A DNA stretch of 64,000 bases, taken from the IMG/VR virus record IMGVR_UViG_3300042882_000327, positions 25,960-89,959 of that record, one strand, 5' to 3'. Every line of letters begins with the position of its first letter. Position 1 is the stretch's first letter. The DNA comes from a virus. Of this stretch, positions 31,319 to 42,547 are shown one piece after another. Made by a program: the position numbers and the translations under genes. The notes under the pieces are model-generated. The model worked only from the letters and a program-made list of their open reading frames with translations. It was not told where the DNA came from and searched no databases.

Positions 31319-32713
31319 TTAAAATTTAGCGAGTCTAGTAATCTTGTTAACATAAGATTCGATTAAGGGATCGACTACTTTAGTCGTATTGTCTTCATCG
31401 ATTTCAATCATGTCGTTTAAAGAATCTGTAGATGCTGTTCTGATTTCTGTTGGGAAATAGCTTTCCTTGATAGAAACTAATTTTTCTGAAAAATCTTCTT
31501 CAGAAACGAACTCAACATTCTTAGCTAGTGCTCTAACTTTCTCAGCTTGAGATAGTGTTAGACCTTCACATGCTAGATGAACTACTTCTTCTTTTCTGTG
31601 TTCGGATAGAGACTTCTTTAGATCAATATTCTTTAGATGTTGTTCATTGATTTGATCTTCTAGCTCTTCAACGCGATCAGCTAGTTGTTCAACGATATCA
31701 ACTTTATCTTCTGGAATATCAATATAATGTTCTACGAACACATTCTTTAATGCTCCGATGAAATCTTCTACGATCTCAGAACGAAGTCCTTTTTCGATAG
31801 CTAATTCATTTTCAGCCATCCAATTTTCAACAACGTAGTCTAGGTAAGAATCTAGCTTAGATGCAAAATCTTCCTTAACTACTTCTAGAGTTTCTTCAAA
31901 CTCAGCAATATACTTTTCTTCTAGTTCAGAAGCGATTTCTTCAACACGAGCTTCAACAGCCGCTTCGAAGATCATAGAAGCCTTTTCTTTGAATTCTTCA
32001 GAAAGGTTTTCGCCAGAAAGCATGGCATCAACGTCTTCTTTAACCTTCATTTTCATTTCGTCTTTCTTTGCTTTTTTTGCTTTCTTATTTTCTTCTTCGT
32101 CTTCGTCTTCATCGTCATAGGAATCGCAACTGTCGCCTTCCATGATTCTTACTGCTTCGTCTTTATCGCAACCATATTTTTCCATGAAAGATTCATCTTC
32201 CATATTTTCTAAGTCTTCCATAACTTCTTCAATGGTAGCTTCTTCCAATTCTTCCTCTTCTTCGTACTCTTCTTCTTCTTCTCCTTCGCAAGCTGCAACA
32301 GCTTTAGGATTGCCTTGCTTCTTGACGGAAGCTAGAGTGGCCTTAGTACGTTCGCCCTTTTCGGCGGATTTAGAAGTTTCTGGTTCGATTTCTGGGGACT
32401 TAGCTAGATCAGAACGACCAGCCTTTTCGCCTGGTTGAGTTGATAACTTCTTCATTGGTTCGGAACCAACTGGTGGGGTTTTACCCGGAGCAGTTGCTGT
32501 AGGAACTCCATTAGTAGGATCTAGAGCACTGTCATCAGTTGAATAACCATTTCTACCAATATCTTTTGTAGACTGCTGTGGAGCAGTTACGCTTGGCTTA
32601 TATCCATCTCCGAAAGATGCAGATGGAGCAGCCTTTTTGCTGGCAGCAAGATTAGCAGAAGCATCACCTTCTAGAATCTTTGCAGCAGCTTCAGATAAAT
32701 TTAATTTAGACAT
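31319..32713 (-). CDS. gp22: prohead core scaffold protein
   Basis: LSEEFKEKASMIFEAAV, YLDYVVENWM, acidic coiled coil; synteny. Confidence 0.9.
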   Translation of the reverse strand: MSKLNLSEAAAKILEGDASANLAASKKAAPSASFGDGYKPSVTAPQQSTKDIGRNGYSTDDSALDPTNGVPTATAPGKTPPVGSEPMKKLSTQPGEKAGRSDLAKSPEIEPETSKSAEKGERTKATLASVKKQGNPKAVAACEGEEEEEYEEEEELEEATIEEVMEDLENMEDESFMEKYGCDKDEAVRIMEGDSCDSYDDEDEDEEENKKAKKAKKDEMKMKVKEDVDAMLSGENLSEEFKEKASMIFEAAVEARVEEIASELEEKYIAEFEETLEVVKEDFASKLDSYLDYVVENWMAENELAIEKGLRSEIVEDFIGALKNVFVEHYIDIPEDKVDIVEQLADRVEELEDQINEQHLKNIDLKKSLSEHRKEEVVHLACEGLTLSQAEKVRALAKNVEFVSEEDFSEKLVSIKESYFPTEIRTASTDSLNDMIEIDEDNTTKVVDPLIESYVNKITRLAKF

Positions 32714-32774: not shown

Positions 32775-33440
32775 TTACAATCTATTCATATAGTTTTCAA
32801 AAATCTTTAAAGCTACTGCTTCAATATCTTTTGATTTTACTTTCTTCAATGTTTGCTTCGCTTCTTCTCTGTACTGTTGTACCCAACCTTTGCCATCGAC
32901 AAACATCCACTCGGCATCTTCCATAATGCCATCAACCCAACAGGACAATCCTGATGGTTGTAGAACTGCATCTACACAAGAAATTGTAAAGTCTCCTTGT
33001 ACAACTTTAATACCATTCTCTCCTTCTTTAATAGAACCTAATGCTCTAGAAGAACAACCAAAAGAAACTCCTCCCTCGATTAGAGCTTGTAGTTCTTTTC
33101 CTGCGGCGGTTTCTAAAATTTTCGCTTTACCATAAACATCTCCTTTATCGGAACCTTTTCTTTCCAATCTAAGTTCTGTGATGATGTGAGAAATCTTGCC
33201 TTCGGAAATTCTTGGACTATCTTCGTGGCCCAATGTACCAACCGCTCTATTACGATCTACATAATCTTCAATATATTTCTCTACCGCTGGAAACATTACG
33301 TTTTCTTGATAGATTCTATTGTTTCTGTTAGCAACTCCCCATTCCATAAATGGACCTTGGATATAATAATTCTTTTTTCCAGAAGCAGTAGATTCTGTCA
33401 AAACTTCAAAATCTTCTATATCTTCTCTTAGTAATTTCAT
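32775..33440 (-). CDS. gp21: prohead protease
   Basis: NRNNRIY, GTLGH, SSRALGS, DAVLQPS. Confidence 0.93.
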   Translation of the reverse strand: MKLLREDIEDFEVLTESTASGKKNYYIQGPFMEWGVANRNNRIYQENVMFPAVEKYIEDYVDRNRAVGTLGHEDSPRISEGKISHIITELRLERKGSDKGDVYGKAKILETAAGKELQALIEGGVSFGCSSRALGSIKEGENGIKVVQGDFTISCVDAVLQPSGLSCWVDGIMEDAEWMFVDGKGWVQQYREEAKQTLKKVKSKDIEAVALKIFENYMNRL

Positions 33441-33468: not shown

Positions 33469-33960
33469 TTATATTGAATCAGAATCCAATTTTTTTAATT
33501 GTTTTTTATATAAATTTGGTTCGTGTTCCTTAACTTTTTCTTTTCTAATGTGAGATAAAGTAGATCTAACAAGCAATGATGGTTTGTATGGCTCGTTTTG
33601 TTCTTTGATAGAAGCATGTTTTCTCCATGCAGAATATACATCTCTTGTAGAAAATGGAGAAACATCTTTTCCATGTGGAGAAAGAACTATATCTTCATGT
33701 CCTGGTTTTTTATATACTTTATGACTTGTCTTATTTTGTCTAGCAAATCTATAACCAATACCAGTCAATATATTATGAGCTTGTGAAAATTTCATAATTG
33801 TTGGTCTATTACTCGTCAACATAGAAGAAGATATATCAATTCTTTTTTCTTGTAATTTTAAACATATTTTTTCTTTAATAATATCTTCTAATATGATATT
33901 AGCCCGATCTATATCATTTTCTACCAAACAATTTATTAAATTTTTTATTTTTTCGGACAT
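33469..33960 (-). CDS. prohead-core (gp67-like) anchor fused to HicA-like domain
   Basis: N-terminal helix ending LQEKRIDISSSM resembles 35318-36217 N-terminus; residues ~56-110 match HicA pattern. Confidence 0.55.
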   Translation of the reverse strand: MSEKIKNLINCLVENDIDRANIILEDIIKEKICLKLQEKRIDISSSMLTSNRPTIMKFSQAHNILTGIGYRFARQNKTSHKVYKKPGHEDIVLSPHGKDVSPFSTRDVYSAWRKHASIKEQNEPYKPSLLVRSTLSHIRKEKVKEHEPNLYKKQLKKLDSDSI

Positions 33961-33972
33961 TTTTAAATTACC

Positions 33973-34395
33973 TTAAATCGTTGCTAATTGAAAATGCATA
34001 CCATCTGGTTTTTTCCAATAACCACCCCATGCAAATCCCGCATCTGTAAAACATTTTACTAATTCCGGAGACATGGTTGGGGGTTTTCCAAATCTATTCC
34101 ATGCAGCATTGATATCAATAGCAATTCCCCAAGAATGGAGAGACATTGATTTCGCCCCACGTTTTGATCTAATATTAAAACAACCATCCCATGTTTTGAG
34201 TTGGTCTGTTAGTCCTCTATGTAATATATTTTCAAATGCATTTGTTAAAGGAATTATCATATCTTTATTACAATAAATCTTTTTTGGGATAACTCCTACG
34301 TGTAAATAATTTGGAACGACCCAAAGAGTCATATTAGACTCTTTAAATGGGTTTCCATATTTTTTCCAACATTGTTCAGAAGTCACCAAAGACAT
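33973..34395 (-). CDS. M15-family peptidoglycan peptidase (putative endolysin)
   Basis: SLHSWGIAIDIN and WGG.W..PDGMHFQ motifs. Confidence 0.85.
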   Translation of the reverse strand: MSLVTSEQCWKKYGNPFKESNMTLWVVPNYLHVGVIPKKIYCNKDMIIPLTNAFENILHRGLTDQLKTWDGCFNIRSKRGAKSMSLHSWGIAIDINAAWNRFGKPPTMSPELVKCFTDAGFAWGGYWKKPDGMHFQLATI

Positions 34396-34396
34396 A

Positions 34397-34921
34397 TTAT
34401 TCTCCGGTCATTATTACCAAGTTGGTATTTGCACCAATAGCAGTAACATTAGCTCTCATATAAGCCCAGCCTGGTTTTAGTGTGATATATGTAGTATTGC
34501 CAGAATCTGATCCATGAGTTACAGTATTCGAAGCAATCCAATGATTTCCATCCAAGGAAACATCAACTTTATATGAAGCACCGCCAGTACCATTTACATA
34601 AGATTGTACAATAGTATCGGTTCCGGTTGCTCTTGGTAAAGTATGTTCTGGCTTTGTTCCAGTTTGTCCGGATAAAAATCCATTAATACAATAATTATCA
34701 ATTCCTTGCATATGTTTATTGCATTGAACTGTAAATGTATTTGAGGATGTTACTGTTGCAGTTGCTGTATACGCATCATAACTTGCACCAGATGTTAATG
34801 TGACTTCTGCTCCTGTAAATAATCCGTGATTATTGGCTGTTATAGTGATGACATTATTAGTATAAGTAAATGAATTTACTGGAAAAAATTGTTTAATGTA
34901 TCTTACTCGTGAAACGCTCAT
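34397..34921 (-). CDS. hypothetical beta-rich virion protein
   Basis: 174-aa Thr/Asn-rich ORF in head cluster. Confidence 0.55.
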   Translation of the reverse strand: MSVSRVRYIKQFFPVNSFTYTNNVITITANNHGLFTGAEVTLTSGASYDAYTATATVTSSNTFTVQCNKHMQGIDNYCINGFLSGQTGTKPEHTLPRATGTDTIVQSYVNGTGGASYKVDVSLDGNHWIASNTVTHGSDSGNTTYITLKPGWAYMRANVTAIGANTNLVIMTGE

Positions 34922-35314
34922 TTATGTTTCCTTATTAAATTTATCTACAGAATATTTTAACATCTGTAAAAAGTTAGTTTCTGATTCAAGTATATATTCT
35001 TCAAATTCTACCTTACCATCGGAAATGGATTCATATAATTCTAGAATAGACTTTGAACATTCTTCGTTAATATTCAATGTAGAACCATCATGAAAATATA
35101 ATGGTTCTACTTCTTCTATGGATTTTAACTGTTCTATGATAGAAAAATCGCATTCCATTAGTTCTAGGCCATTCTTCTCGTAATTTAAAGAAAAATACTT
35201 TTTTAACTGTTCGCAAAAATACAAAGCAACTTTTTGACCTCCCGGAAAGGTCTGAATAGCAGTTCTTCTCAGAACTAGATTTACAGGAGGTTCTCTAAAA
35301 GTTTTCTTTTTCAT
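34922..35314 (-). CDS. conserved hypothetical protein (head cluster)
   Basis: PPVNLVLRRTAIQTFPGGQKVALY; tight operon spacing. Confidence 0.6.
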   Translation of the reverse strand: MKKKTFREPPVNLVLRRTAIQTFPGGQKVALYFCEQLKKYFSLNYEKNGLELMECDFSIIEQLKSIEEVEPLYFHDGSTLNINEECSKSILELYESISDGKVEFEEYILESETNFLQMLKYSVDKFNKET

Positions 35315-35317
35315 TTA

Positions 35318-36217
35318 TTATTCTTCTACTTCTTCATTAGTAGCTTTCTTCTTTGCGGCATAATATGCACCAAGAGCCATTTGTCTTCTTTCTTCTTTAG
35401 ATTTTCCTTCAAATCTGGAATCGTCAGAATGGACAAAATCTTTAATCCAAGCAGAAACGCCATCAGAAACTGATAATTTTTCTTCCAATTCTTCAGATTC
35501 TTTTCTAATCATTTTAAAATCTTGAGAATCTAATCTTCCGTTTTTATTTTTATCCAGTTTACGCTGTTTTCCTATAAGTTTTTCTTCTAAAGATTCATTA
35601 GCAGATTTTTCGGATGCAATTTTTACACCATGATATGTGTGGTCTGGAAATTTTGTATGCATTATTTTAATAGCTTTATCATTGGCATGTTTTGTAGTTT
35701 TTGCTTTAACTTCAAAATCGTGTCTATTACTTCGGTCATCATGCGGACTATTAGAAGCATATCCTGTAAATTTGAAAGTGGCTTCTTCCAAAGATTCATT
35801 AGCAGATTTTTTTAAATATCTTTGCATATACCAATCAGGAGTACCATTGTTTTTTCTCCAATATAAAACACCAGAAGCATCATTTACTTGATCTAAATAT
35901 TTTGCTTCTGCTTTGTCTCCAGAAATTGTACCATGTGTTCTCATGGCTTTTGCAGCTTCGCCAGCATCTTTCATGATAAATCTTAGTTGATCATCAGATT
36001 TACTGTGATATTCGTGGCCTTCTAATGGATGTTGTTTAGATTTTCTGGCTTCTTCCAAAGATTCATTAGTATTCATGAATGATTGAGCAACTTCAATTCT
36101 TTTTGATTCTAGAGCATCAACAATTTTAGATTGAATGGCCGCTGTAATTGATGCTTGCATATCAGCAATATTATCGGACGAAGCATATTCAATAGCGTTT
36201 TTAATGTTTTCTTCCAT
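35318..36217 (-). CDS. prohead core (gp67-like) polyprotein with NESLEE linkers
   Basis: Directly after portal; core-like N-terminus; three NESLEE repeats separating distinct modules. Confidence 0.65.
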   Translation of the reverse strand: MEENIKNAIEYASSDNIADMQASITAAIQSKIVDALESKRIEVAQSFMNTNESLEEARKSKQHPLEGHEYHSKSDDQLRFIMKDAGEAAKAMRTHGTISGDKAEAKYLDQVNDASGVLYWRKNNGTPDWYMQRYLKKSANESLEEATFKFTGYASNSPHDDRSNRHDFEVKAKTTKHANDKAIKIMHTKFPDHTYHGVKIASEKSANESLEEKLIGKQRKLDKNKNGRLDSQDFKMIRKESEELEEKLSVSDGVSAWIKDFVHSDDSRFEGKSKEERRQMALGAYYAAKKKATNEEVEE

Positions 36218-36260: not shown

Positions 36261-37922
36261 TTACTGTTGTATATTATACGGATTATTATTTCTTGATGTC
36301 GATTGTTGTGGTTGTTGCGATTGTTCTTGCTCTGCTCCAGCATCTATTTGTTGATCTGGTTGTGGCATTAACTTATTAGTAAGTTCCGCAGCTTGCGCCT
36401 GAAGAGTAATTTGCTTTTCTTGATCTTCGGATTGCTGTGTAAAGTCGGTGATTCTTTCTTCTGCAATTTCCTCGTCCATCAACTTCATTTCTTCTTCGTT
36501 CAAACGAAGAATATTTTCTCTAATCCATTTCTTAGAATAATATTTACCAACAAAAGGATCTACTGTAGCTAGAATATTTAACCTTTCGGTCATTAATTCG
36601 GATTCTTTCAATTCTACGAAATTATTATCAACCGTAAAATCGAAATAAATGTCTTGTTTAAATTGTTCCCATTCTTCTTCTGTGCAAATTCCTTTTAGAA
36701 CTAACTGCACTCTCATAGCTTGATAGAAAATATCAGAGAATTTCTTCCTTAGTTTATCAACAAATTTAGAGAATTTTAATTCATCTCTAGTAATTTCCAT
36801 TGAACGTCCAATGGATACTGCTTGACCCGGATCTAGTCTTGTAACAGGAACATTCAATGATTTATATAGTTTTTGCTGGAAATATTCCACCATTGCCATA
36901 TCATTGAAATTGTCTGTCGATTGAAGGGTGGTAATTTCCGTGCCTTTTCCCCCATCAGAACGACGAGGTAGCCAAAAATCTTCCAACATGGAAAGATGTC
37001 TTCTATCATCTCTAACTTCGCCGGTGTTCGCATCATATACCAATTTATTTTTATATTTGGTCATGATATCACGAACATATTGTTCGGCTTTTTGTTTAGG
37101 TAAATTACCAACATCAATATAGAACACTCTTCTTTGTGGTGCTCTAGAAATTTTGTAAATGACTGAAGCATCTTCAATCATTCGTAATTGGTTTAATGGT
37201 TTAATTGCTTTATGTAAATAACTCAATACCATCGATCTTCTAGGGTCCATTAATCCCGAAGTGACGTAAATTATTGAATCTGTTGCTATTTTTACTCCAA
37301 GAGTAGTTAGACTTTGTGTTACCTTGTCATTATAGACGTAGTATTCTTCCACTTTATCAATTAGATCGACACCAGTTTGCGGGTCTTTTACTTTTTTGAT
37401 TTGCCTAACTTTTTTAATTCTTCTTGGGTCGATATATCGTAATTCGAGAATTCCCTTTTGGGGATTATTAACATCAATAATAATTTGATAAAATAAACGT
37501 CCATCGACATAATATCTTCTGAATATATCAGAAGACATATTACTATAGTTTAGTAGTCTCTGGACGTTATCGAATTCGTCATAAATGGCTTTTTTGATTT
37601 TGTCTGATTGCTTTAAATCGTCTGTTACTAATTTAATGCTTTTACCATCGTCATCATTAACGATAGCTTCGTTAACAACATCTTCGATGGCAGCTTCAAT
37701 TTCGGGTTGCATACTCATCTCTCTATAACGAGTGATAAGTTCAATTTCGTTTTTAGCAACGCCTTCGACATCTATAGATGCAGAACCAAAGAATGCCGAA
37801 GAAGATATAGTAAGAGAACCATCATCGTCAGGTGGTTGGACAAAGGTTTTATTATCTACTTCCTCTTCGGATTTTCTTCGAATTTTAAATCCAAATAAAG
37901 AAAAACTATTTTTATCAGCCAT
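36261..37922 (-). CDS. gp20: portal protein
   Basis: YYVDGR, SYLHKAIKPLNQLRMIED, RAPQRRVFYIDVGNLP, EDFWLPRR, ITRDELKF. Confidence 0.97.
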   Translation of the reverse strand: MADKNSFSLFGFKIRRKSEEEVDNKTFVQPPDDDGSLTISSSAFFGSASIDVEGVAKNEIELITRYREMSMQPEIEAAIEDVVNEAIVNDDDGKSIKLVTDDLKQSDKIKKAIYDEFDNVQRLLNYSNMSSDIFRRYYVDGRLFYQIIIDVNNPQKGILELRYIDPRRIKKVRQIKKVKDPQTGVDLIDKVEEYYVYNDKVTQSLTTLGVKIATDSIIYVTSGLMDPRRSMVLSYLHKAIKPLNQLRMIEDASVIYKISRAPQRRVFYIDVGNLPKQKAEQYVRDIMTKYKNKLVYDANTGEVRDDRRHLSMLEDFWLPRRSDGGKGTEITTLQSTDNFNDMAMVEYFQQKLYKSLNVPVTRLDPGQAVSIGRSMEITRDELKFSKFVDKLRKKFSDIFYQAMRVQLVLKGICTEEEWEQFKQDIYFDFTVDNNFVELKESELMTERLNILATVDPFVGKYYSKKWIRENILRLNEEEMKLMDEEIAEERITDFTQQSEDQEKQITLQAQAAELTNKLMPQPDQQIDAGAEQEQSQQPQQSTSRNNNPYNIQQ

Positions 37923-37958: not shown

Positions 37959-38501
37959 TTAGATAAAATCAGTGGTTTCTATATGCTGCCACCAGTTCAT
38001 CGCAAAAGTAACAGAAAATTCTGCAATTCTGTCATTATCGCCCCAATCTACTGGAATAGCACCGATATCAACCGGAAAACACTTAATCATTTGATATTGT
38101 GCTTTGATAGAACCGTCTTTTCCATATTGAATAACTTTTCCATCCATTTGATAAACGGCTGGAGAAACATATGTAACACTTCTTACGTTTTGTACGTGTC
38201 TATTCAATTGATCAGACCATCTTTCTAAAAAAGCTCTTGGACCATCAAAAGTTAGATCATCTTCGTCTAATAGAACACTAATAGTCCAATCTCCAAAAAC
38301 TCTATTACCGGCGAATTTGGCTTGACGACCAAAATAAAATGCTGGAGCAACCCCGATGCTAGAAGCAGGAATTGCAGAAGCCTTTGCTCTAATAGGCATT
38401 TTTAGACCAGTTCCAACTTGGTCAAAGAATATTTCAAAAAGATTTGGTCTTAGACCATCTCTTTGCATTTCTGAAATGAAATTATTAATATTAAACGCCA
38501 T
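37959..38501 (-). CDS. gp19: tail tube protein
   Basis: RPNLFE, GRQAKFAGNRVFGDW, FPVDIG...EFSVTF. Confidence 0.93.
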   Translation of the reverse strand: MAFNINNFISEMQRDGLRPNLFEIFFDQVGTGLKMPIRAKASAIPASSIGVAPAFYFGRQAKFAGNRVFGDWTISVLLDEDDLTFDGPRAFLERWSDQLNRHVQNVRSVTYVSPAVYQMDGKVIQYGKDGSIKAQYQMIKCFPVDIGAIPVDWGDNDRIAEFSVTFAMNWWQHIETTDFI

Positions 38502-38619: not shown

Positions 38620-40398
38620 TTAGAACTGTCCAATTACTGTGGAGAATTCTACGCCACTTCTTACGGCTACAAAATTTAGCTGAATAAAGTTAATTGATCT
38701 TGCTGGTTTGATGTAGATATCACCAACAAAAGCATTTCTGTCAATTACATCTGGGGTATTATTTGTTTCATCACAAATAACTTTGAAGTCAATAATACCA
38801 CGACGACCTTTAACAGTTCTTAGATATGGTTCAATCATAGCAACGAACTGTGCTCTGGTAAACGCATCATTGAATTCGAATAGGCTATATCTTGCAGATC
38901 TGGAGATAGCTTTTTCTAGAGTAATGAATAGTCTACGAACATTGATTCTATCAAATGCTGAAGGCTTTGCTTGCATGGTCTTGTCACCTAGTAGAACAAC
39001 ACCTTCGCCCTTCATGAAGATAACAGGATTAACACCATTTTTGTATAGTGCATCTCTTTCTGTCAGATTTGGCGACCAAGCTAATTTAACAACATTTTTA
39101 ATCTTGCCACGATTGAAACCGCCTGGAGAGAACCAAGGATCGGCAACAGAGTCAGTATAAGCACACAGACCAGCAATGTCAGCATTCAAAGGAACCCAAC
39201 GATAAACGTTGTTGTAACGATCATATTGATATTTCCAACCGGAGTCAGAAACCATATATGAACTGGATCTTGATAGAGTGTTTAGGAAGCTGTCATTATC
39301 TGTTACGATTCTTTCGACTTCTTGATTCGGTTTATTCACAACATCCGAGAATCTTGGAGAAACGAATAACATCAAATCCTTTCTACCAACAGTTGGAGAT
39401 TCGGATTCTGGTCCTAGAACAATTTCATCTAGAACATGTTGAGCAACTCCGACACTAGAAGAACCAACGAATGCAAGAGAAATTTCGTATCTATCCTTAT
39501 CTTTGAATCTATCCCAGTTTAATTCTAATGCTCCGTCAGAAGGAGTAGAACCATTAGCACCACCAGTTAAAGTAACAGTATAGTTTGATGGAGAGTAGAA
39601 TCCAGATCCCATAGTAAGATCCGAAGACAATTTGCCCCATGTTGTAGAAGTATTCGAAAAATCTACTGGGTCCATTGCATAGATATACTGAGAATTTTGT
39701 TTTAGATATTCTTTGTAATAAGAACTTCTACCATTAATATCAACAGCATCAAATGATTTTGATAGAAATGCAAACTTCTCAATAATTGTATTTGCTTTTC
39801 CGGTAAATCCACCAGCAGAGTCGATAACAACAATATGTAATTCGTCATTGGCAACGTAGTTACCAGTCTTTTCAATGATATATTGAGAAGTTCCTGGAGC
39901 ATTGTCGAAATAACGGGAATAATTCCAATCTGTAAAATCGGAATTTTTTGCACAAATGGAAACTGTTAAAGAATTTCCTAGTGTTCCTGGATATCTAGCA
40001 GCAAATGGACCAAAAGAATTTGTATTATTAGCGTAGAAGTACGTAGATTCGAATGTATCTTGGTTTTTGCATAGCAAAGTTCTGCTAACATTTGCAGTAG
40101 CATTGTTTGCGGTATTTGCGTCAACAGTTCTTACTACATACAATGCGTTGGTATAAGATAAGAAGTTCGCGCAAGAAAAGAAAGAAACAGCAGAAAAAGA
40201 ATTTTCTATTGTTGATACTGGTTTTCCAAAAACTTCTATTAATTGATTTTCGTCAGAAATCAATGAAGGATCGTCACATGGACCCCAGTTGAATTGTCCT
40301 ACATAAGCTCCAACGGAGGTTGCTACACTAGGTACGATAGTGGTTAAGTCAATTTCGTTGACAGCAATTCCAGGGCTTAGTTGATTAATTATGCTCAT
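38620..40398 (-). CDS. gp18: tail sheath protein
   Basis: SPGIAVNEIDLT, PWFSPGG, FDRINVRRLF, KPARSINFIQLNF. Confidence 0.97.
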   Translation of the reverse strand: MSIINQLSPGIAVNEIDLTTIVPSVATSVGAYVGQFNWGPCDDPSLISDENQLIEVFGKPVSTIENSFSAVSFFSCANFLSYTNALYVVRTVDANTANNATANVSRTLLCKNQDTFESTYFYANNTNSFGPFAARYPGTLGNSLTVSICAKNSDFTDWNYSRYFDNAPGTSQYIIEKTGNYVANDELHIVVIDSAGGFTGKANTIIEKFAFLSKSFDAVDINGRSSYYKEYLKQNSQYIYAMDPVDFSNTSTTWGKLSSDLTMGSGFYSPSNYTVTLTGGANGSTPSDGALELNWDRFKDKDRYEISLAFVGSSSVGVAQHVLDEIVLGPESESPTVGRKDLMLFVSPRFSDVVNKPNQEVERIVTDNDSFLNTLSRSSSYMVSDSGWKYQYDRYNNVYRWVPLNADIAGLCAYTDSVADPWFSPGGFNRGKIKNVVKLAWSPNLTERDALYKNGVNPVIFMKGEGVVLLGDKTMQAKPSAFDRINVRRLFITLEKAISRSARYSLFEFNDAFTRAQFVAMIEPYLRTVKGRRGIIDFKVICDETNNTPDVIDRNAFVGDIYIKPARSINFIQLNFVAVRSGVEFSTVIGQF

Positions 40399-40840: not shown

Positions 40841-42547
40841 TTAACCTCTAAAGAAATTATCAAAAAGTTCTTTATAGATATCATCATTTTTAGTACCCAG
40901 ATTAGCATTAACCCACAAAGTGCCATCTTCCTGATAGAAATCTAATTGCATTCCATTTGTTGGACCAATTACAGGTAACATTTCATCGTCATCAAATTCT
41001 TCAAAATGTTCTATTTGTAATTGTCTTTTAATATCATGTGATACAATTTCTTTAAATAATTTTTGTGAAGCTAACCAAGCAAATATTACTAAAGTCATTG
41101 CTATGTCATCATTACAACCTTCTTCTGCTCTGTATGTTGGACCATCTACTACAAATGTAGTTAGTTCAGAAATAGTTTCAAAATCATTAATGATTAGTTT
41201 ATCATTTTCTATTAATGTTTTTAATGATGAACATCCTACTCTTTTAACCAAAGGACTCATCTTCAATCCAGAGAATGTTTTACCGGATCTTAATGAAATT
41301 GTTTGAGCTTTTTTATTCCCCGACGATACCCTAAAAACATTTTCATATCCCAAATCTTCTTGTAATATGTCTGCTACTTGTGGATTATTATTGATTTCCA
41401 CCAAAACGTGTGCAGTGTTGTAATAATCCGCACATGCTTTGACAATAGCTGGTAATACCATAGGAGAAATATTATTGTTTCTATATACTGCTACTTGTTT
41501 ATATGGAATTGCTGAAATATCAAACACAGAAAATGCAGAATAGTCTAAATTCTTTCCTTCCGAGACATCTACAGTAATTGCATATAAATGATCTCCAGAT
41601 ATGGGTTTTCCTGTATAATCATCAATTGTTTCTTTTACAGGTTGCTCGTATATTGTCATATTGGAATATTCGCCAATAGGTTCTTTGTACGGAAGACAAG
41701 CTAATTTTTCTCCAGAGATTAATGTATTGGTTGAACCGAGGAACGAACATTCAATTTCTTGTGCGAATTGTCTTTCTGAAGTATTTCTTATAAATTCTTC
41801 TTTCCACTTCTCATCTCTTCCCGGAACTTGAGTCCAGTGAACGTCGATACATGAATAATCATTTTTTCCAGATTTTGCATCGGTAAAGATTTTATAGAAT
41901 AGATTCATACCATTAGGAGTACTAATGATAGTGATCTTTGTTTTTTCGCCGGAAGAAATAACTGGATATACCGATGTAAAGAATTCTTCGGCTAGATTAT
42001 TATGAACGTGGGCGAATTCGTCAAGTATGACATGGGTATAACTTCCGCCTCGCACTGCTGATGAAGATGTTGCGGCGGCGGTTACTTTCGATCCGTTTTC
42101 TAATTCAATATTACCTTTATTCCACACTACTACCCCTTGTTGCAAGAACATGGGCAGATTTTCGTATGATCTTTGATACCTATCAAGAAGATCCCTAGCC
42201 AATGACCCTTTATTAGCAAGGATAACAATATTTTGTGTATCTTTAAATAGAGATGACCATAAAACATAACCTATAGTAGTTTGACTTTTACCAGATTGGC
42301 GACCAATTCTGCCTACAACGCGACGATTATCGTAAATAGTCTTGATCATCTCTCTTTGGAAATCATATAACTTGAAAGGGATCACACCCCTATCAACGTG
42401 AATGATTTTCATGTAATTTTCTATAAAATATATCGGATCTTGGGAACATTTTAAATATTCCTCTAGTTGCTCCTGAGTATATTCTAATTGAACATTACAT
42501 CTTTTTAAGAGTGGATTCGCTCGGTAGCTATCACTCAAATCCGTCAT
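40841..42547 (-). CDS. gp17: terminase large subunit
   Basis: GRQSGKS, ILDEFAH, ISTPNG, VDVSEG, NDDIAM. Confidence 0.97.
   Translation of the reverse strand: MTDLSDSYRANPLLKRCNVQLEYTQEQLEEYLKCSQDPIYFIENYMKIIHVDRGVIPFKLYDFQREMIKTIYDNRRVVGRIGRQSGKSQTTIGYVLWSSLFKDTQNIVILANKGSLARDLLDRYQRSYENLPMFLQQGVVVWNKGNIELENGSKVTAAATSSSAVRGGSYTHVILDEFAHVHNNLAEEFFTSVYPVISSGEKTKITIISTPNGMNLFYKIFTDAKSGKNDYSCIDVHWTQVPGRDEKWKEEFIRNTSERQFAQEIECSFLGSTNTLISGEKLACLPYKEPIGEYSNMTIYEQPVKETIDDYTGKPISGDHLYAITVDVSEGKNLDYSAFSVFDISAIPYKQVAVYRNNNISPMVLPAIVKACADYYNTAHVLVEINNNPQVADILQEDLGYENVFRVSSGNKKAQTISLRSGKTFSGLKMSPLVKRVGCSSLKTLIENDKLIINDFETISELTTFVVDGPTYRAEEGCNDDIAMTLVIFAWLASQKLFKEIVSHDIKRQLQIEHFEEFDDDEMLPVIGPTNGMQLDFYQEDGTLWVNANLGTKNDDIYKELFDNFFRG

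What the first reader, a model, noticed from the sequence alone, without database searches (positions are those of the whole stretch)
35318..36217. Capsid-cargo polyprotein: unrelated modules joined by repeated NESLEE protease linkers
Seen: after a core-like anchor, four unrelated modules are separated by NESLEE (x3) and ESEELEE, ending NEEVEE. The linkers are near-identical in DNA (TTCTTCYAAAGATTCATTAG at 35582, 35783, 36050; two extend with CAGATTTT). One module has an EF-hand-like loop (DKNKNGRLDSQD), two are His-rich. Established: T4 gp21 cleaves after Glu in (I/L)xE sites of core and internal proteins, and internal proteins such as IPI are injected anti-defence factors. Inference: a plug-and-play cassette that packages several small effectors as one chain, with the linker DNA serving as recombination points for module exchange. 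Together with the HicA fusion this suggests a general head-loading system.
Basis: partly seen in the sequence, partly recalled or inferred. Interest (0 to 1): 0.78.

Follow-up and report, generated by a model that had tools for sequence, protein, structure and literature searches.

The report
Protease-jointed head-cargo polyprotein, T4-like phage
A lake-water T4-like phage encodes, right after its portal gene, one protein that starts like T4's head-core protein gp67 and then strings four unrelated mini-proteins together with a repeated joint that looks like the cutting site of its own head protease; related phages swap these mini-proteins exactly at the joints, but cutting and packaging have not been measured.

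Summary
Observation confirmed. The 299-aa ORF (35318-36217, minus strand) lies between a T4-type portal and an S77 prohead protease. It has a 48-aa helical anchor and four unrelated modules. The joints are NESLEE three times and ESEELEE once, and the protein ends in NEEVEE. The 20-nt linker DNA repeat is real (3 copies; 0 of 100 shuffles reach 3).

Interpretation partly supported.
- The anchor is a distant gp67-type core protein by synteny and weak profile links.
- LEE[AK] occurs only 6 times in the window: 4 in this protein and 2 in the scaffold, a canonical protease substrate.
- In a relative with 99% identical capsid protein, only the anchor and the last module are shared.
- DNA homology to four relatives breaks and resumes within 0 to 8 codons of the joints.
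- Across 240 metagenomic relatives the modules recur in other sets and orders. Each is preceded in fixed register by hydrophobic-x-Glu. Module cores lack that motif.
- Some relatives carry module 1 behind a 10-residue T4-type capsid-targeting peptide.

Not shown: cleavage, packaging, ejection or any module function. Fold searches gave nothing.

The scan noted similar polyproteins before on other DNA (27 notes, at least 26 genomes). I found no paper describing them.

The parts
35318..36217 (-). Whole ORF, 299 aa: anchor plus four modules
   Evidence: No Pfam or PHROG family for the whole protein.
36050..36217 (-). M0, aa 1-56: gp67-like helical anchor (core aa 1-48) ending in joint 1, NESLEE
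   Evidence: An HMM of 53 M0 copies hits the cyanophage 55-aa 'prehead core component' at E=2.7e-8 and the HicA-fusion N-terminus at 6.2e-7. phrog_1064, the T4 gp67 family, is its only hit, at E=0.019. AF2 gives a helix at 16-57 with pLDDT 91-95.
35783..36049 (-). M1, aa 57-145: helical module (pI 8.2) ending in joint 2, NESLEE
   Evidence: pLDDT 89-96. Found in 132 of 240 relatives. Stand-alone forms sit behind a 10-aa T4-type targeting peptide.
35582..35782 (-). M2, aa 146-212: rare His-rich module ending in joint 3, NESLEE
   Evidence: Found in only 4 of 240 proteins. pLDDT mostly below 50. 97% identical copy in P0002.
35480..35581 (-). M3, aa 213-246: 34-aa module with one EF-hand-like loop (aa 221-232, 35522-35557) ending in joint 4, ESEELEE
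   Evidence: EF-hand_1 E=4e-4, below cut-off. Found in 96 of 240 proteins.
35321..35479 (-). M4, aa 247-299: helical hairpin module ending in a half-joint, NEEVEE, then stop
   Evidence: pLDDT 94-97. Found in 119 of 240 proteins. In relatives the same NEEVE motif runs on into further modules.
36050..36078 (.). Linker DNA repeat, copy 1 (72% to the reference over 29 nt; first 20 nt exact to the pattern)
35783..35811 (.). Linker DNA repeat, copy 2 (97%)
35582..35610 (.). Linker DNA repeat, copy 3 (reference copy)
35321..35349 (.). Degenerate linker repeat at the 3' end of the gene (76%)
32775..33440 (-). Prohead protease, the proposed cutter
   Evidence: PF03420 Peptidase_S77 E=6.5e-27. phrog_207 E=9.8e-55.
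31319..32713 (-). Head scaffolding protein. It holds the only other two LEE[AK] sites in the window.
   Evidence: phrog_237 E=6.2e-74. Motif count.
36261..37922 (-). T4-type portal protein, directly upstream of the ORF
   Evidence: PF07230 E=1.4e-167
33469..33960 (-). Second anchor-bearing gene: an M0-like N-terminus fused to a HicA-like domain
   Evidence: BLASTP of the two N-termini gives 31% over 51 aa, E=9e-6. M0 HMM E=6.2e-7. HicA_toxin E=4.1e-5, 24.1 bits, below the 27-bit cut-off.

Best explanation
This is a head-loading polyprotein.

Its first 48 residues are a diverged copy of the T4 gp67 prohead-core protein. They take the chain into the scaffolding core while the prohead is built (inferred).

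The phage's S77 prohead protease then cuts after the second Glu of each ...[ES]-L-E-E joint, before Ala or Lys. This frees four small proteins of 89, 67, 34 and 53 residues. Without their acidic tails these are basic (inferred).

The pieces stay with the DNA and enter the host with it, as the T4 internal proteins do (inferred, the least certain step).

The joint is also the unit of evolution. Relatives gain, lose and reorder single modules exactly there (shown by comparison). This is probably helped by the near-identical 20-29-nt linker DNA (inferred).

What the modules do is open. M3 probably binds a divalent cation. The others have no known fold or family.
For: Context:
- The gene order is terminase, sheath, tube, portal, this ORF, four small ORFs, S77 protease, scaffold, capsid protein. 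This ORF sits where gene 67 sits in T4.

Anchor:
- The paralogous anchor in relative L003 hits phrog_1064 at E=2.3e-5.

Cut sites:
- T4 gp21 cuts after L/I-x-E, often at a Glu-Ala bond, and fragments gp67, gp68 and gp22 (passages of PMC9026906).
- LEE[AK] occurs 6 times in 23,227 aa of minus-strand frames: 4 in this protein and 2 in the scaffold.
- The capsid protein is 35% identical to T4 gp23 (E=7e-79). It carries I-N-E 8 residues after the position that aligns with T4's propeptide region.

Register in relatives:
- [LIVMF]xE ends directly before the M4 core in 93 of 93 copies.
- It ends 5 aa before the M1 core in 95 of 106.
- It ends directly before the M3 core in 44 of 85.
- The background rate is 0.026 per residue.

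Module cores avoid the motif:
- [LI]xE is in 0 of 121 M1 cores, 0 of 96 M4 cores and 2 of 96 M3 cores.
- The expected rates are 0.27, 0.18 and 0.12 per core.

Exchange:
- In L004 the capsid protein is 99.3% identical, the portal 94.8% and the protease 91.9%. Only M0 (73%) and M4 (89%) are shared.
- DNA homology ends at aa 48, 56 or 57 and resumes at aa 213, 214, 245 or 249 in four relatives.
- Cutting 300 proteins at acidic [LIVMF]xE gives 1487 segments, 556 families and 274 distinct architectures. It recovers the target's five pieces.
- In the 11 listed loci of the same clade (portal 64-95% identical; L016 and L017 give the same chain, and L010-L013 are whole or truncated versions of the L011 chain), the post-portal gene always starts with the anchor and carries varying cargo, about six distinct architectures.

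Targeting precedent:
- T4 IPII and IPIII begin MKTYQEFIAE.
- 15 of 240 relatives begin M-x6-[LIVMF]-x-E. They include stand-alone M1 proteins such as MKSLKQYIAE-GRPSQ....

Other:
- AF2 models M0, M1 and M4 as confident separate helical units.
- Related chains sometimes carry HicA (4 of 78) or Zeta toxin (1 of 78) domains.
Against: - No cleavage, virion or ejection data exist for this phage or any relative.
- On this protein alone, the absence of internal [LI]xE is not significant (2065 of 10000 shuffles).
- Sequences in the family counts are related, so the register and depletion counts are not independent events.
- The motif precedes M4 just as strictly in 28 of 28 copies on contigs with no T4-type head genes in view. 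It could therefore be part of the domain itself. No S77 gene was found on 5 such contigs, though these are only 14-56% complete.
- The link to T4 gp67 is weak: BLASTP finds nothing, the M0 HMM gives E=0.51 to T4 gp67, and Pfam GP67 has no hit at E<=1.
- In T4, the fragments of gp67, gp68 and gp22 mostly leave the head (PMC9026906 passage).
- A blunt test of all BLAST alignment ends against [LI]xE gave only weak enrichment: 0.04 against 0.01 exact, and 0.22 against 0.14 within 5 aa.
- AF2 draws joints 1 and 2 as continuous helix, not as loose linker.
Confidence: 0.55

Rival explanations
1. It is a core or scaffold component only. The chain is loaded and cut as proposed, but the pieces are filler that shapes or fills the prohead core. 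They then leave through the shell or portal before or during DNA packaging, as most gp22, gp67 and gp68 fragments do in T4. They have no role in the next host.
For: T4 precedent (passages of PMC9026906). The pieces are small, 34-89 aa. No known effector family is present in the target. Fold searches gave no informative match.
Against: - Filler would not need conserved, confidently folded domains (pLDDT 89-97 for M1 and M4).
- The modules travel as units between phages and avoid internal cut sites.
- The same module M1 is also made as a separate protein behind an internal-protein-type 10-aa targeting peptide.
- Sister chains carry HicA and Zeta toxin domains.
- Turnover between near-identical phages looks like conflict-driven change rather than structural need.
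Confidence: 0.25
2. It is an uncut multi-domain protein. The acidic joints are only flexible or helical spacers between independent domains, and they are the places where in-frame recombinants survive. The match to the protease rule is a by-product of Glu-rich spacers.
For: - Glu-rich linkers will often contain hydrophobic-x-Glu.
- AF2 shows helix running through joints 1 and 2.
- The motif is equally strict on contigs where no S77 protease is in view.
Against: - The register is exact (93 of 93 before M4), while the residues around it vary: LEE, IEE, LDE, VDE, INE, IAE.
- The hydrophobic residue at -3 and the Glu at -1 are what is kept. That is the protease rule, not a spacer property.
- LEE[AK] is otherwise confined to the scaffold protein.
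- The gene sits in the prohead-core locus next to the protease.
Confidence: 0.12
3. The chain is a precursor of small secreted or cytoplasmic late proteins that have nothing to do with the head. It is cut by a host or other phage protease.
For: None specific. It cannot be excluded without protein data.
Against: - Its position is inside the portal-protease-scaffold-capsid block in 35 of 80 related loci that show both the portal and the protease.
- The N-terminus is gp67-like.
- There is no signal peptide-like or membrane segment in the translation (read).
Confidence: 0.05

Closest known systems
Phage T4 internal proteins IPI, IPII, IPIII and Alt, with the 10-residue capsid targeting sequence and gp21 processing
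   Same: - Cargo is taken into the prohead core by an N-terminal tag and released by the S77 protease after (L/I)xE.
- Cargo is highly diverse between related phages, with only the tag conserved (passages of PMC3012670 and PMC9026906).
- Relatives of module M1 carry a T4-like 10-aa tag.
   Different: - Several cargos are on one chain, separated by internal cut sites, instead of one cargo per gene.
- The tag is a 48-aa gp67-like helix, not the 10-aa peptide.
- Exchange happens in frame inside one gene.
- None of it has been shown biochemically.
Phage T4 prohead core protein gp67 (Pfam PF17634, phrog_1064)
   Same: - Same locus, directly after the portal gene.
- About 50-aa helical N-terminus.
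- Relatives follow it with an acidic tail like that of T4 gp67.
- Weak profile links.
- gp67 is cut into fragments by gp21 (PMC9026906).
   Different: - T4 gp67 is 80 aa with only an acidic tail and no cargo.
- Sequence similarity is below significance in direct tests.
- This phage has two such anchors; the second is fused to HicA.
Polyvalent proteins of phages and conjugative elements (Iyer et al. 2017, PMC5512222)
   Same: Many unrelated domains are in one polypeptide. They are thought to be delivered with the DNA and to be cut into working units (passages).
   Different: - Those are large enzyme-rich proteins that carry their own peptidase domain for self-processing.
- This chain has tiny modules and no peptidase or known conflict domain.
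- Its sites fit a protease encoded by a separate gene.
Extensively processed head and ejection proteins of giant phages phiKZ, 201phi2-1 and SPN3US
   Same: gp21-related proteases cut many head proteins after Glu at a short motif. Propeptides carry several redundant sites (passages of PMC9026906; abstracts of PMC5694885 and PMC7411985).
   Different: There, one mature protein is freed from a propeptide. A chain of different swappable mini-proteins is not described in what I read.

Membership tests
T4 gp67 prohead core protein (PF17634 / phrog_1064) | Gene directly downstream of the portal gene (20) and upstream of the prohead protease gene (21) | tested here: met
   T4 map
T4 gp67 prohead core protein (PF17634 / phrog_1064) | Significant match to the family model | tested here: inconclusive
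   - Pfam GP67: no hit at E<=1.
- phrog_1064 is the only hit of M0, at E=0.019.
- The M0 HMM gives E=0.51 to T4 gp67 but 2.7e-8 to a cyanophage 'prehead core component'.
- The paralogous anchor in L003 hits phrog_1064 at 2.3e-5.
T4 gp67 prohead core protein (PF17634 / phrog_1064) | Incorporated in the prohead core and fragmented by gp21 | not testable with these tools
   Needs protein work
T4-type internal proteins with capsid targeting sequence | 10-residue N-terminal peptide ending (L/I)-x-E | tested here: not met
   The target begins with a 48-aa anchor, and its first [LI]xE is at aa 54-56. 15 of 240 relatives do have such a peptide.
T4-type internal proteins with capsid targeting sequence | S77 prohead protease encoded by the same phage | tested here: met
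   PF03420 E=6.5e-27; found again
T4-type internal proteins with capsid targeting sequence | Cargo differs between close relatives while the tag is kept | tested here: met
T4-type internal proteins with capsid targeting sequence | Present in mature heads and ejected with the DNA | not testable with these tools
   No virion proteome for this uncultured phage
Substrates of S77 prohead proteases | (L/I)-x-E at the proposed cut points, shared with canonical substrates of the same phage | tested here: met
   All 4 joints carry it. LEE[AK] is otherwise found only in the scaffold. The capsid protein has I-N-E in its N-terminal propeptide region.
Polyvalent proteins (Iyer et al. 2017) | Known conflict or enzyme domains, with a processing peptidase domain in the same chain | tested here: not met
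   No Pfam family in the target at E<=0.01. No peptidase in any module at E<=1. Among 78 longer relatives, 4 carry HicA and 1 carries Zeta toxin; none carries a peptidase.
EF-hand (PF00036), module M3 | 12-residue Ca-binding loop scoring over the family cut-off | tested here: inconclusive
   E=4e-4, 20.2 bits against a 25.4-bit cut-off. The loop DKNKNGRLDSQD has acidic or amide residues at positions 1, 3, 5, 9 and 12 and Gly at 6 (read; the consensus is recalled).
EF-hand (PF00036), module M3 | Paired EF-hands | tested here: not met
   There is one loop in a 34-aa module

The most novel reading that the evidence does not exclude
Aquatic phages keep a shared, recombining library of hundreds of mini-protein modules. 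This includes HicA and Zeta toxins. Any module can be loaded into the capsid by placing it behind a core-protein anchor or a 10-aa tag, between copies of the head protease's own cut site. The cut-site codons also act as the recombination joint. A phage can therefore change in one step the set of proteins it injects ahead of its genome. This would be an in-frame, combinatorial counterpart of the T4 internal-protein loci and a natural multi-cargo delivery device.
Probability: 0.35. Interest if true: 0.85.

Novelty: new variant of a known kind. Interest (0 to 1): 0.7.

Why it matters
Phage T4 showed that a capsid can carry proteins into the host and that a short tag plus the head protease is enough to load them. 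That principle now underlies engineered T4 delivery particles.

If this reading is right, uncultured lake and marine phages use the same principle in a multiplexed form. One gene gives several cargos, and cargo changes between otherwise near-identical phages.

That would point to a large, unexplored set of small injected proteins, with candidates for anti-defence or host-takeover functions. It would also give a simple rule, anchor plus cut-site joints, for finding them in metagenomes and for building multi-cargo capsids.

It is directly testable with one protease and one substrate gene.

Tried and rejected
Sequence searches that found nothing:
- tblastn of the protein against 50,697 deposited phage genomes: no match at E<=1e-3.
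- blastn of the 5.9-kb neighbourhood: only the portal gene matched, at 60-80% identity, mostly in cyanophages.
- Pfam and PHROGs on the whole protein: nothing.
- Search of the phage's own 89,959-base record with the protein: only itself at E<=0.01.

Direct tests of the gp67 link that failed:
- BLASTP to T4 gp67 and to the cyanophage 55-aa core protein: nothing.

Module function:
- Foldseek against PDB: no match at E<=0.001.
- BFVD: only uncharacterised phage relatives.
- VIA-align against 48,161 chains: best Z 7.1 over 56 residues of M1. These are generic helical hairpins such as ribosomal L29, below the level that means anything for helical models.
- ESM Atlas: leads only. These were viral clusters with HicA, Dockerin/EF-hand-like, DUF5824/cytidylyltransferase, and one S77-peptidase cluster with Dockerin-like loops in 18% of members.
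- M2 and M3 were poorly modelled and were not folded alone, so nothing can be said about their folds.

Tests that were weak:
- All BLAST alignment ends among 240 proteins against [LI]xE gave only slight enrichment. HSP ends are too noisy, so I replaced this with the register test.
- My first clustering of segments merged almost everything into one family and the script crashed. I re-ran it with a stricter coverage rule.

Contigs without T4-type head genes:
- The neighbours in L022 and L047 are an HD phosphohydrolase-type and a cytidylyltransferase-type multidomain protein, a primase, and 'virion structural protein' phrog_1645.
- No S77 gene was found on 5 such contigs (the positive control on the own record is). 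These are fragments, so this proves nothing.

Lake metagenome contigs:
- No contig joined one linker repeat to another with a module removed.
- The parts of the stretch without cover are not evidence.
- Loose ends at 35349 (3 of 4 runs), 35596 and 36073 (X15) and 36031 (X16, X20) read by eye as the known variant forms diverging at or next to the joints. These were translated by hand and are not independent of the protein database.

Literature:
- Six searches found no paper on gp67-anchored or protease-jointed cargo polyproteins.
- Subscription journals are not covered and supplements were closed, so this is not proof of absence.
- Papers seen as passages only: PMC9026906, PMC3012670, PMC5512222, and PMC9004378. 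The 'gp67' in PMC9004378 is an unrelated lysin.
- The other papers were seen as search listings and abstracts.
Full report
WHAT IS THERE

The window is part of an 89,959-base IMG/VR virus record estimated at 50% complete. It has 33.6% G+C, and almost all long ORFs are on the minus strand.

Around the finding the gene order is:
- terminase (40841-42547)
- tail sheath (38620-40398)
- tail tube (37959-38501; phrog_45, 2.1e-38)
- T4-type portal (36261-37922; PF07230, 1.4e-167)
- the 299-aa ORF of the finding (35318-36217)
- two unknown ORFs of 130 and 174 aa
- an M15 peptidase (PF13539, 4.8e-16)
- a 163-aa protein with a HicA-like domain
- the S77 prohead protease (32775-33440; PF03420, 6.5e-27; phrog_207, 9.8e-55)
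- the scaffolding protein (phrog_237, 6.2e-74)
- the major capsid protein (phrog_138, 6.6e-155; 35% identical to T4 gp23, E=7e-79)

In T4 the genes between portal gene 20 and protease gene 21 are the core genes 67 and 68. The stretch, or most of it, stands in contigs of lake-water metagenomes from 20 listed runs. No deposited phage genome has a relative of the protein.

THE OBSERVATION

- The protein reads: anchor (aa 1-48), NESLEE, M1 (to aa 145, ending NESLEE), M2 (to 212, ending NESLEE), M3 (to 246, ending ESEELEE), M4 (to 299, ending NEEVEE, then stop).
- The linker DNA pattern occurs three times in 64 kb against 0.01 expected. Two copies are 97% alike over 29 nt, and the gene's 3' end is a 76% copy.
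- Each repeat starts, on the plus strand, at the last base of the codon for the Glu after which a cut is proposed (36050, 35783, 35582).
- The EF-hand-like loop is at aa 221-232. Its Pfam score is below the cut-off.
- The five pieces are unrelated to one another. They fall in five different families in an all-against-all clustering.

THE ANCHOR

Direct BLASTP to T4 gp67 or to a cyanophage 55-aa 'prehead core component' finds nothing, and Pfam GP67 does not hit. Four weaker lines agree.

1. An HMM of 53 anchors, searched against 417 ORFs of the window, T4, a cyanophage and four relatives, finds three things. The cyanophage core protein that directly follows its portal gene scores 2.7e-8. The N-termini of the HicA-type proteins of the window and two relatives score 6.2e-7, 1.4e-6 and 4.2e-5. 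T4 gp67 is the next best ORF, at a non-significant 0.51.

2. The only PHROG that the anchor touches is phrog_1064, the T4 gp67 family (0.019). The cyanophage protein (0.012) and the HicA-fusion N-terminus (0.087) touch it co-linearly too.

3. The HicA-position protein of relative L003 hits phrog_1064 at 2.3e-5 and a HicA-type toxin family at 5.8e-5.

4. In most relatives the anchor is followed by an acidic run like the tail of T4 gp67.

So 'gp67-like' is a reasonable reading, not a proven homology. The phage has two such anchors, one on the polyprotein and one on the HicA fusion (BLASTP 31% over 51 aa, E=9e-6).

THE JOINTS AS PROTEASE SITES

The rule for T4 gp21 is cleavage after Glu in L/I-x-E, classically at a Glu-Ala bond, and gp67, gp68 and gp22 are cut into several fragments. 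I take this from passages of PMC9026906.

- In this protein the four [LI]xE motifs are the four joints, each followed by Ala or Lys.
- On its own that is not significant (2065 of 10000 shuffles).
- In all minus-strand frames of 60 aa or more (103 frames, 23,227 aa), LEE[AK] occurs six times. Four are in this protein and two are in the scaffolding protein, which is the classic protease substrate.
- The capsid protein has I-N-E at aa 51-53, in the N-terminal stretch that aligns, with gaps, to the region of T4 gp23 holding its maturation cut. The position of the T4 cut is recalled, not tested.

THE RELATIVES

A word-indexed search found 290 proteins at E<=0.01 (120 listed). An exhaustive search of cluster representatives found 2557 at E<=0.001 (150 listed). 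Together they gave 240 distinct proteins. Almost all match only part of the query at high identity.

Module counts among the 240:
- M0 in 53
- M1 in 132
- M2 in 4
- M3 in 96
- M4 in 119

The order varies: M4 can come before M3, M3 before M1, and M1 occurs twice in P0006.

Register test. A [LIVMF]xE ends directly before the M4 core in 93 of 93 copies, five residues before the M1 core in 95 of 106, and directly before the M3 core in 44 of 85. The background rate is 0.026 per residue.

Core depletion. The cores are nearly free of [LI]xE: 0 of 121 M1, 0 of 96 M4 and 2 of 96 M3. Their own composition would give 0.27, 0.18 and 0.12 sites per core.

These sequences are related, so the counts are not independent events. 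But the pattern of sites at every boundary and none inside is what a protease-exposed cargo should show.

Cutting all 300 available chains (240 plus ORFs from loci) at acidic [LIVMF]xE gives 1487 segments in 556 families (381 singletons) and 274 distinct architectures, with a median of 5 modules (range 1-13). The procedure returns the target's five pieces unaided. All 300 were chosen because they share a module with the target, so this is not an unbiased census.

EXCHANGE AT THE JOINTS

The closest relative with DNA in hand is L004 (the same contig as L020).
- Protein identities: capsid protein 99.3%, portal 94.8%, tube 92.8%, protease 91.9%, terminase 90.8%.
- Its post-portal protein (284 aa, P0020) shares only M0 (73%) and M4 (89%).
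- M1-M3 are replaced by an acidic tail and a DUF5710-type module, and an extra module follows M4.

At DNA level:
- Homology with L004 runs from the portal gene to aa 48, stops, resumes at aa 245-298, stops, and resumes at the next gene.
- With L003 it stops at aa 56 and resumes at aa 214.
- With L011 it resumes at aa 213.
- With L016 it stops at aa 57 and resumes at aa 249.
- The proposed cuts are after aa 56, 145, 212 and 246.

Two protein pairs differ by one module bounded by the joint.
- P0002 reads ...NESLEE-ATFKF..., where the target has ...NESLEE-[M1]-NESLEE-ATFKF....
- P0007 has one extra module between two [LV]EE-NK junctions compared with P0005.

In the 11 listed loci of the same clade (portal 64-95% identical), the post-portal gene always begins with the anchor and carries a varying set of cargo. 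Several rows repeat one chain: L016 and L017 are the same, and L010-L013 are whole or truncated versions of the L011 chain. That leaves about six distinct architectures.

Of 80 IMG/VR loci kept from at least 478 relatives, 49 show T4-type portal, protease or capsid genes. In 35 of them both portal and protease are present and flank the module ORF. Several loci are the same contig fetched twice.

Lake contigs laid on the gene end their likeness at or next to the joints, but none shows a module deleted between two repeats. So module gain, loss and swap at the joints is shown. That the repeat DNA is the recombination substrate remains an inference.

A LINK TO THE T4 TARGETING PEPTIDE

T4 IPII and IPIII start with MKTYQEFIAE. 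The 10-residue capsid targeting sequence is described in passages of PMC9026906 and PMC3012670.

Fifteen of the 240 relatives start with M-x6-[LIVMF]-x-E. Six of them (P0154, P0173, P0177, P0178, P0193, P0239) are chains in which module M1 follows such a peptide directly, for example MKSLKQYIAE or MKNFKSFITE and then GRPSQ.... Chance alone would give a handful of such starts, but not this shared MK..K..I.E form.

The same cargo is therefore found behind either an internal-protein-type tag or the gp67-like anchor. For me this is the strongest hint that the modules are head cargo.

WHAT THE MODULES ARE

This is unknown.
- AF2 with a 40-row alignment gives mean pLDDT 75.9. It models a long anchor helix (91-95), a confident helical M1 (89-96), a confident helix-hairpin M4 (94-97), a middling M3 and an unmodelled M2.
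- No fold search gave a meaningful match.
- Without their six-residue acidic tails the modules are basic, pI 9.4-10.4. With the tails they are near neutral.
- M3 has one EF-hand-like loop.
- Among 78 longer chains that share modules with the target, 4 carry HicA, 1 Zeta toxin, 3 DUF6321 and 1 each DUF5824, DUF5661, DUF3008 and Dockerin-like. The rest have no Pfam family.

MECHANISM AND RIVALS

Most likely (0.55):
- loading through the anchor (inferred)
- cutting after LEE by the S77 protease (inferred from motif, context and comparative register)
- retention and delivery of four small proteins (inferred by analogy, the weakest step)

Rivals:
- Cut but expelled core filler (0.25).
- An uncut multidomain protein with acidic spacers (0.12).
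- A precursor unrelated to the head (0.05).

The main facts against my reading are these:
- There is no protein evidence at all.
- The motif before M4 is equally strict on contigs without visible T4-type head genes (28 of 28).
- The link to T4 gp67 is weak.
- In T4, fragments of core proteins mostly leave the head.

NOVELTY

The parts are known: core proteins, targeting tags, S77 cleavage after L/I-x-E, diverse internal proteins, and polyvalent proteins with their own peptidase (PMC5512222 passages). The combination is not in any paper my six searches reached: several unrelated mini-cargos on one gp67-anchored chain, joined by the head protease's site and swapped at that site between near-identical phages.

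Earlier notes of this scan describe the same kind of chain on other DNA (27 notes in at least 26 genomes). They were read after my own reading was formed, and they agree with it.

I class it as a new variant of a known kind.

Noticed in passing
window 33469-33960 (-); L004 9236-9934; L003 4167-4715: The gene just before the protease has an anchor paralogous to M0, fused to a HicA-like domain. In L004 an extra module of about 55 aa sits between anchor and HicA, after an I-L-E site. In L003 the protein hits both phrog_1064 (gp67 family, 2.3e-5) and a HicA-type toxin PHROG (5.8e-5). The window's copy has no [LIVMF]xE between anchor and HicA.
   Followed up: partly
window 33973-34395 (-): An M15 D-Ala-D-Ala carboxypeptidase-type gene sits inside the portal-protease interval. 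It is kept at 79-83% identity in relatives whose portal is only 66-68% identical. It has no [LI]xE at all. A cell-wall enzyme in the prohead-core locus is unusual.
   Followed up: no
window 34397-35314 (-): Two conserved ORFs of 174 and 130 aa with no known family lie between the polyprotein and the M15 gene. The 174-aa one has no [LI]xE, and the 130-aa one has seven.
   Followed up: no
window 35504-35567: The core of the EF-hand-like module has far higher summed contig depth in lake metagenomes (111.9, 54.5 and 44.3) than its surroundings (mostly below 10). It has loose ends on both sides, as if this 60-nt core stands in many different chains in those samples.
   Followed up: partly
L022 1762-6504; L047 1787-6351: On contigs without visible T4-type head genes, M3/M4-bearing chains of 550-735 aa lie next to other multidomain proteins. 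One is an HD phosphohydrolase with DUF5824, another a cytidylyltransferase with DUF6321. A 'virion structural protein' (phrog_1645) is also nearby.
   Followed up: partly
ESM Atlas clusters: A viral cluster of 410-aa proteins that all carry Peptidase_S77 has Dockerin/EF-hand-like loops in 18% of members. This hints that the prohead protease itself can carry such a module. It is a lead only.
   Followed up: no
window 31319-32713 (-): The scaffolding protein has an N-terminal extension of about 110 aa outside the PHROG match (match 114-463) and long Glu/Asp runs. It has 17 [LI]xE motifs.
   Followed up: no
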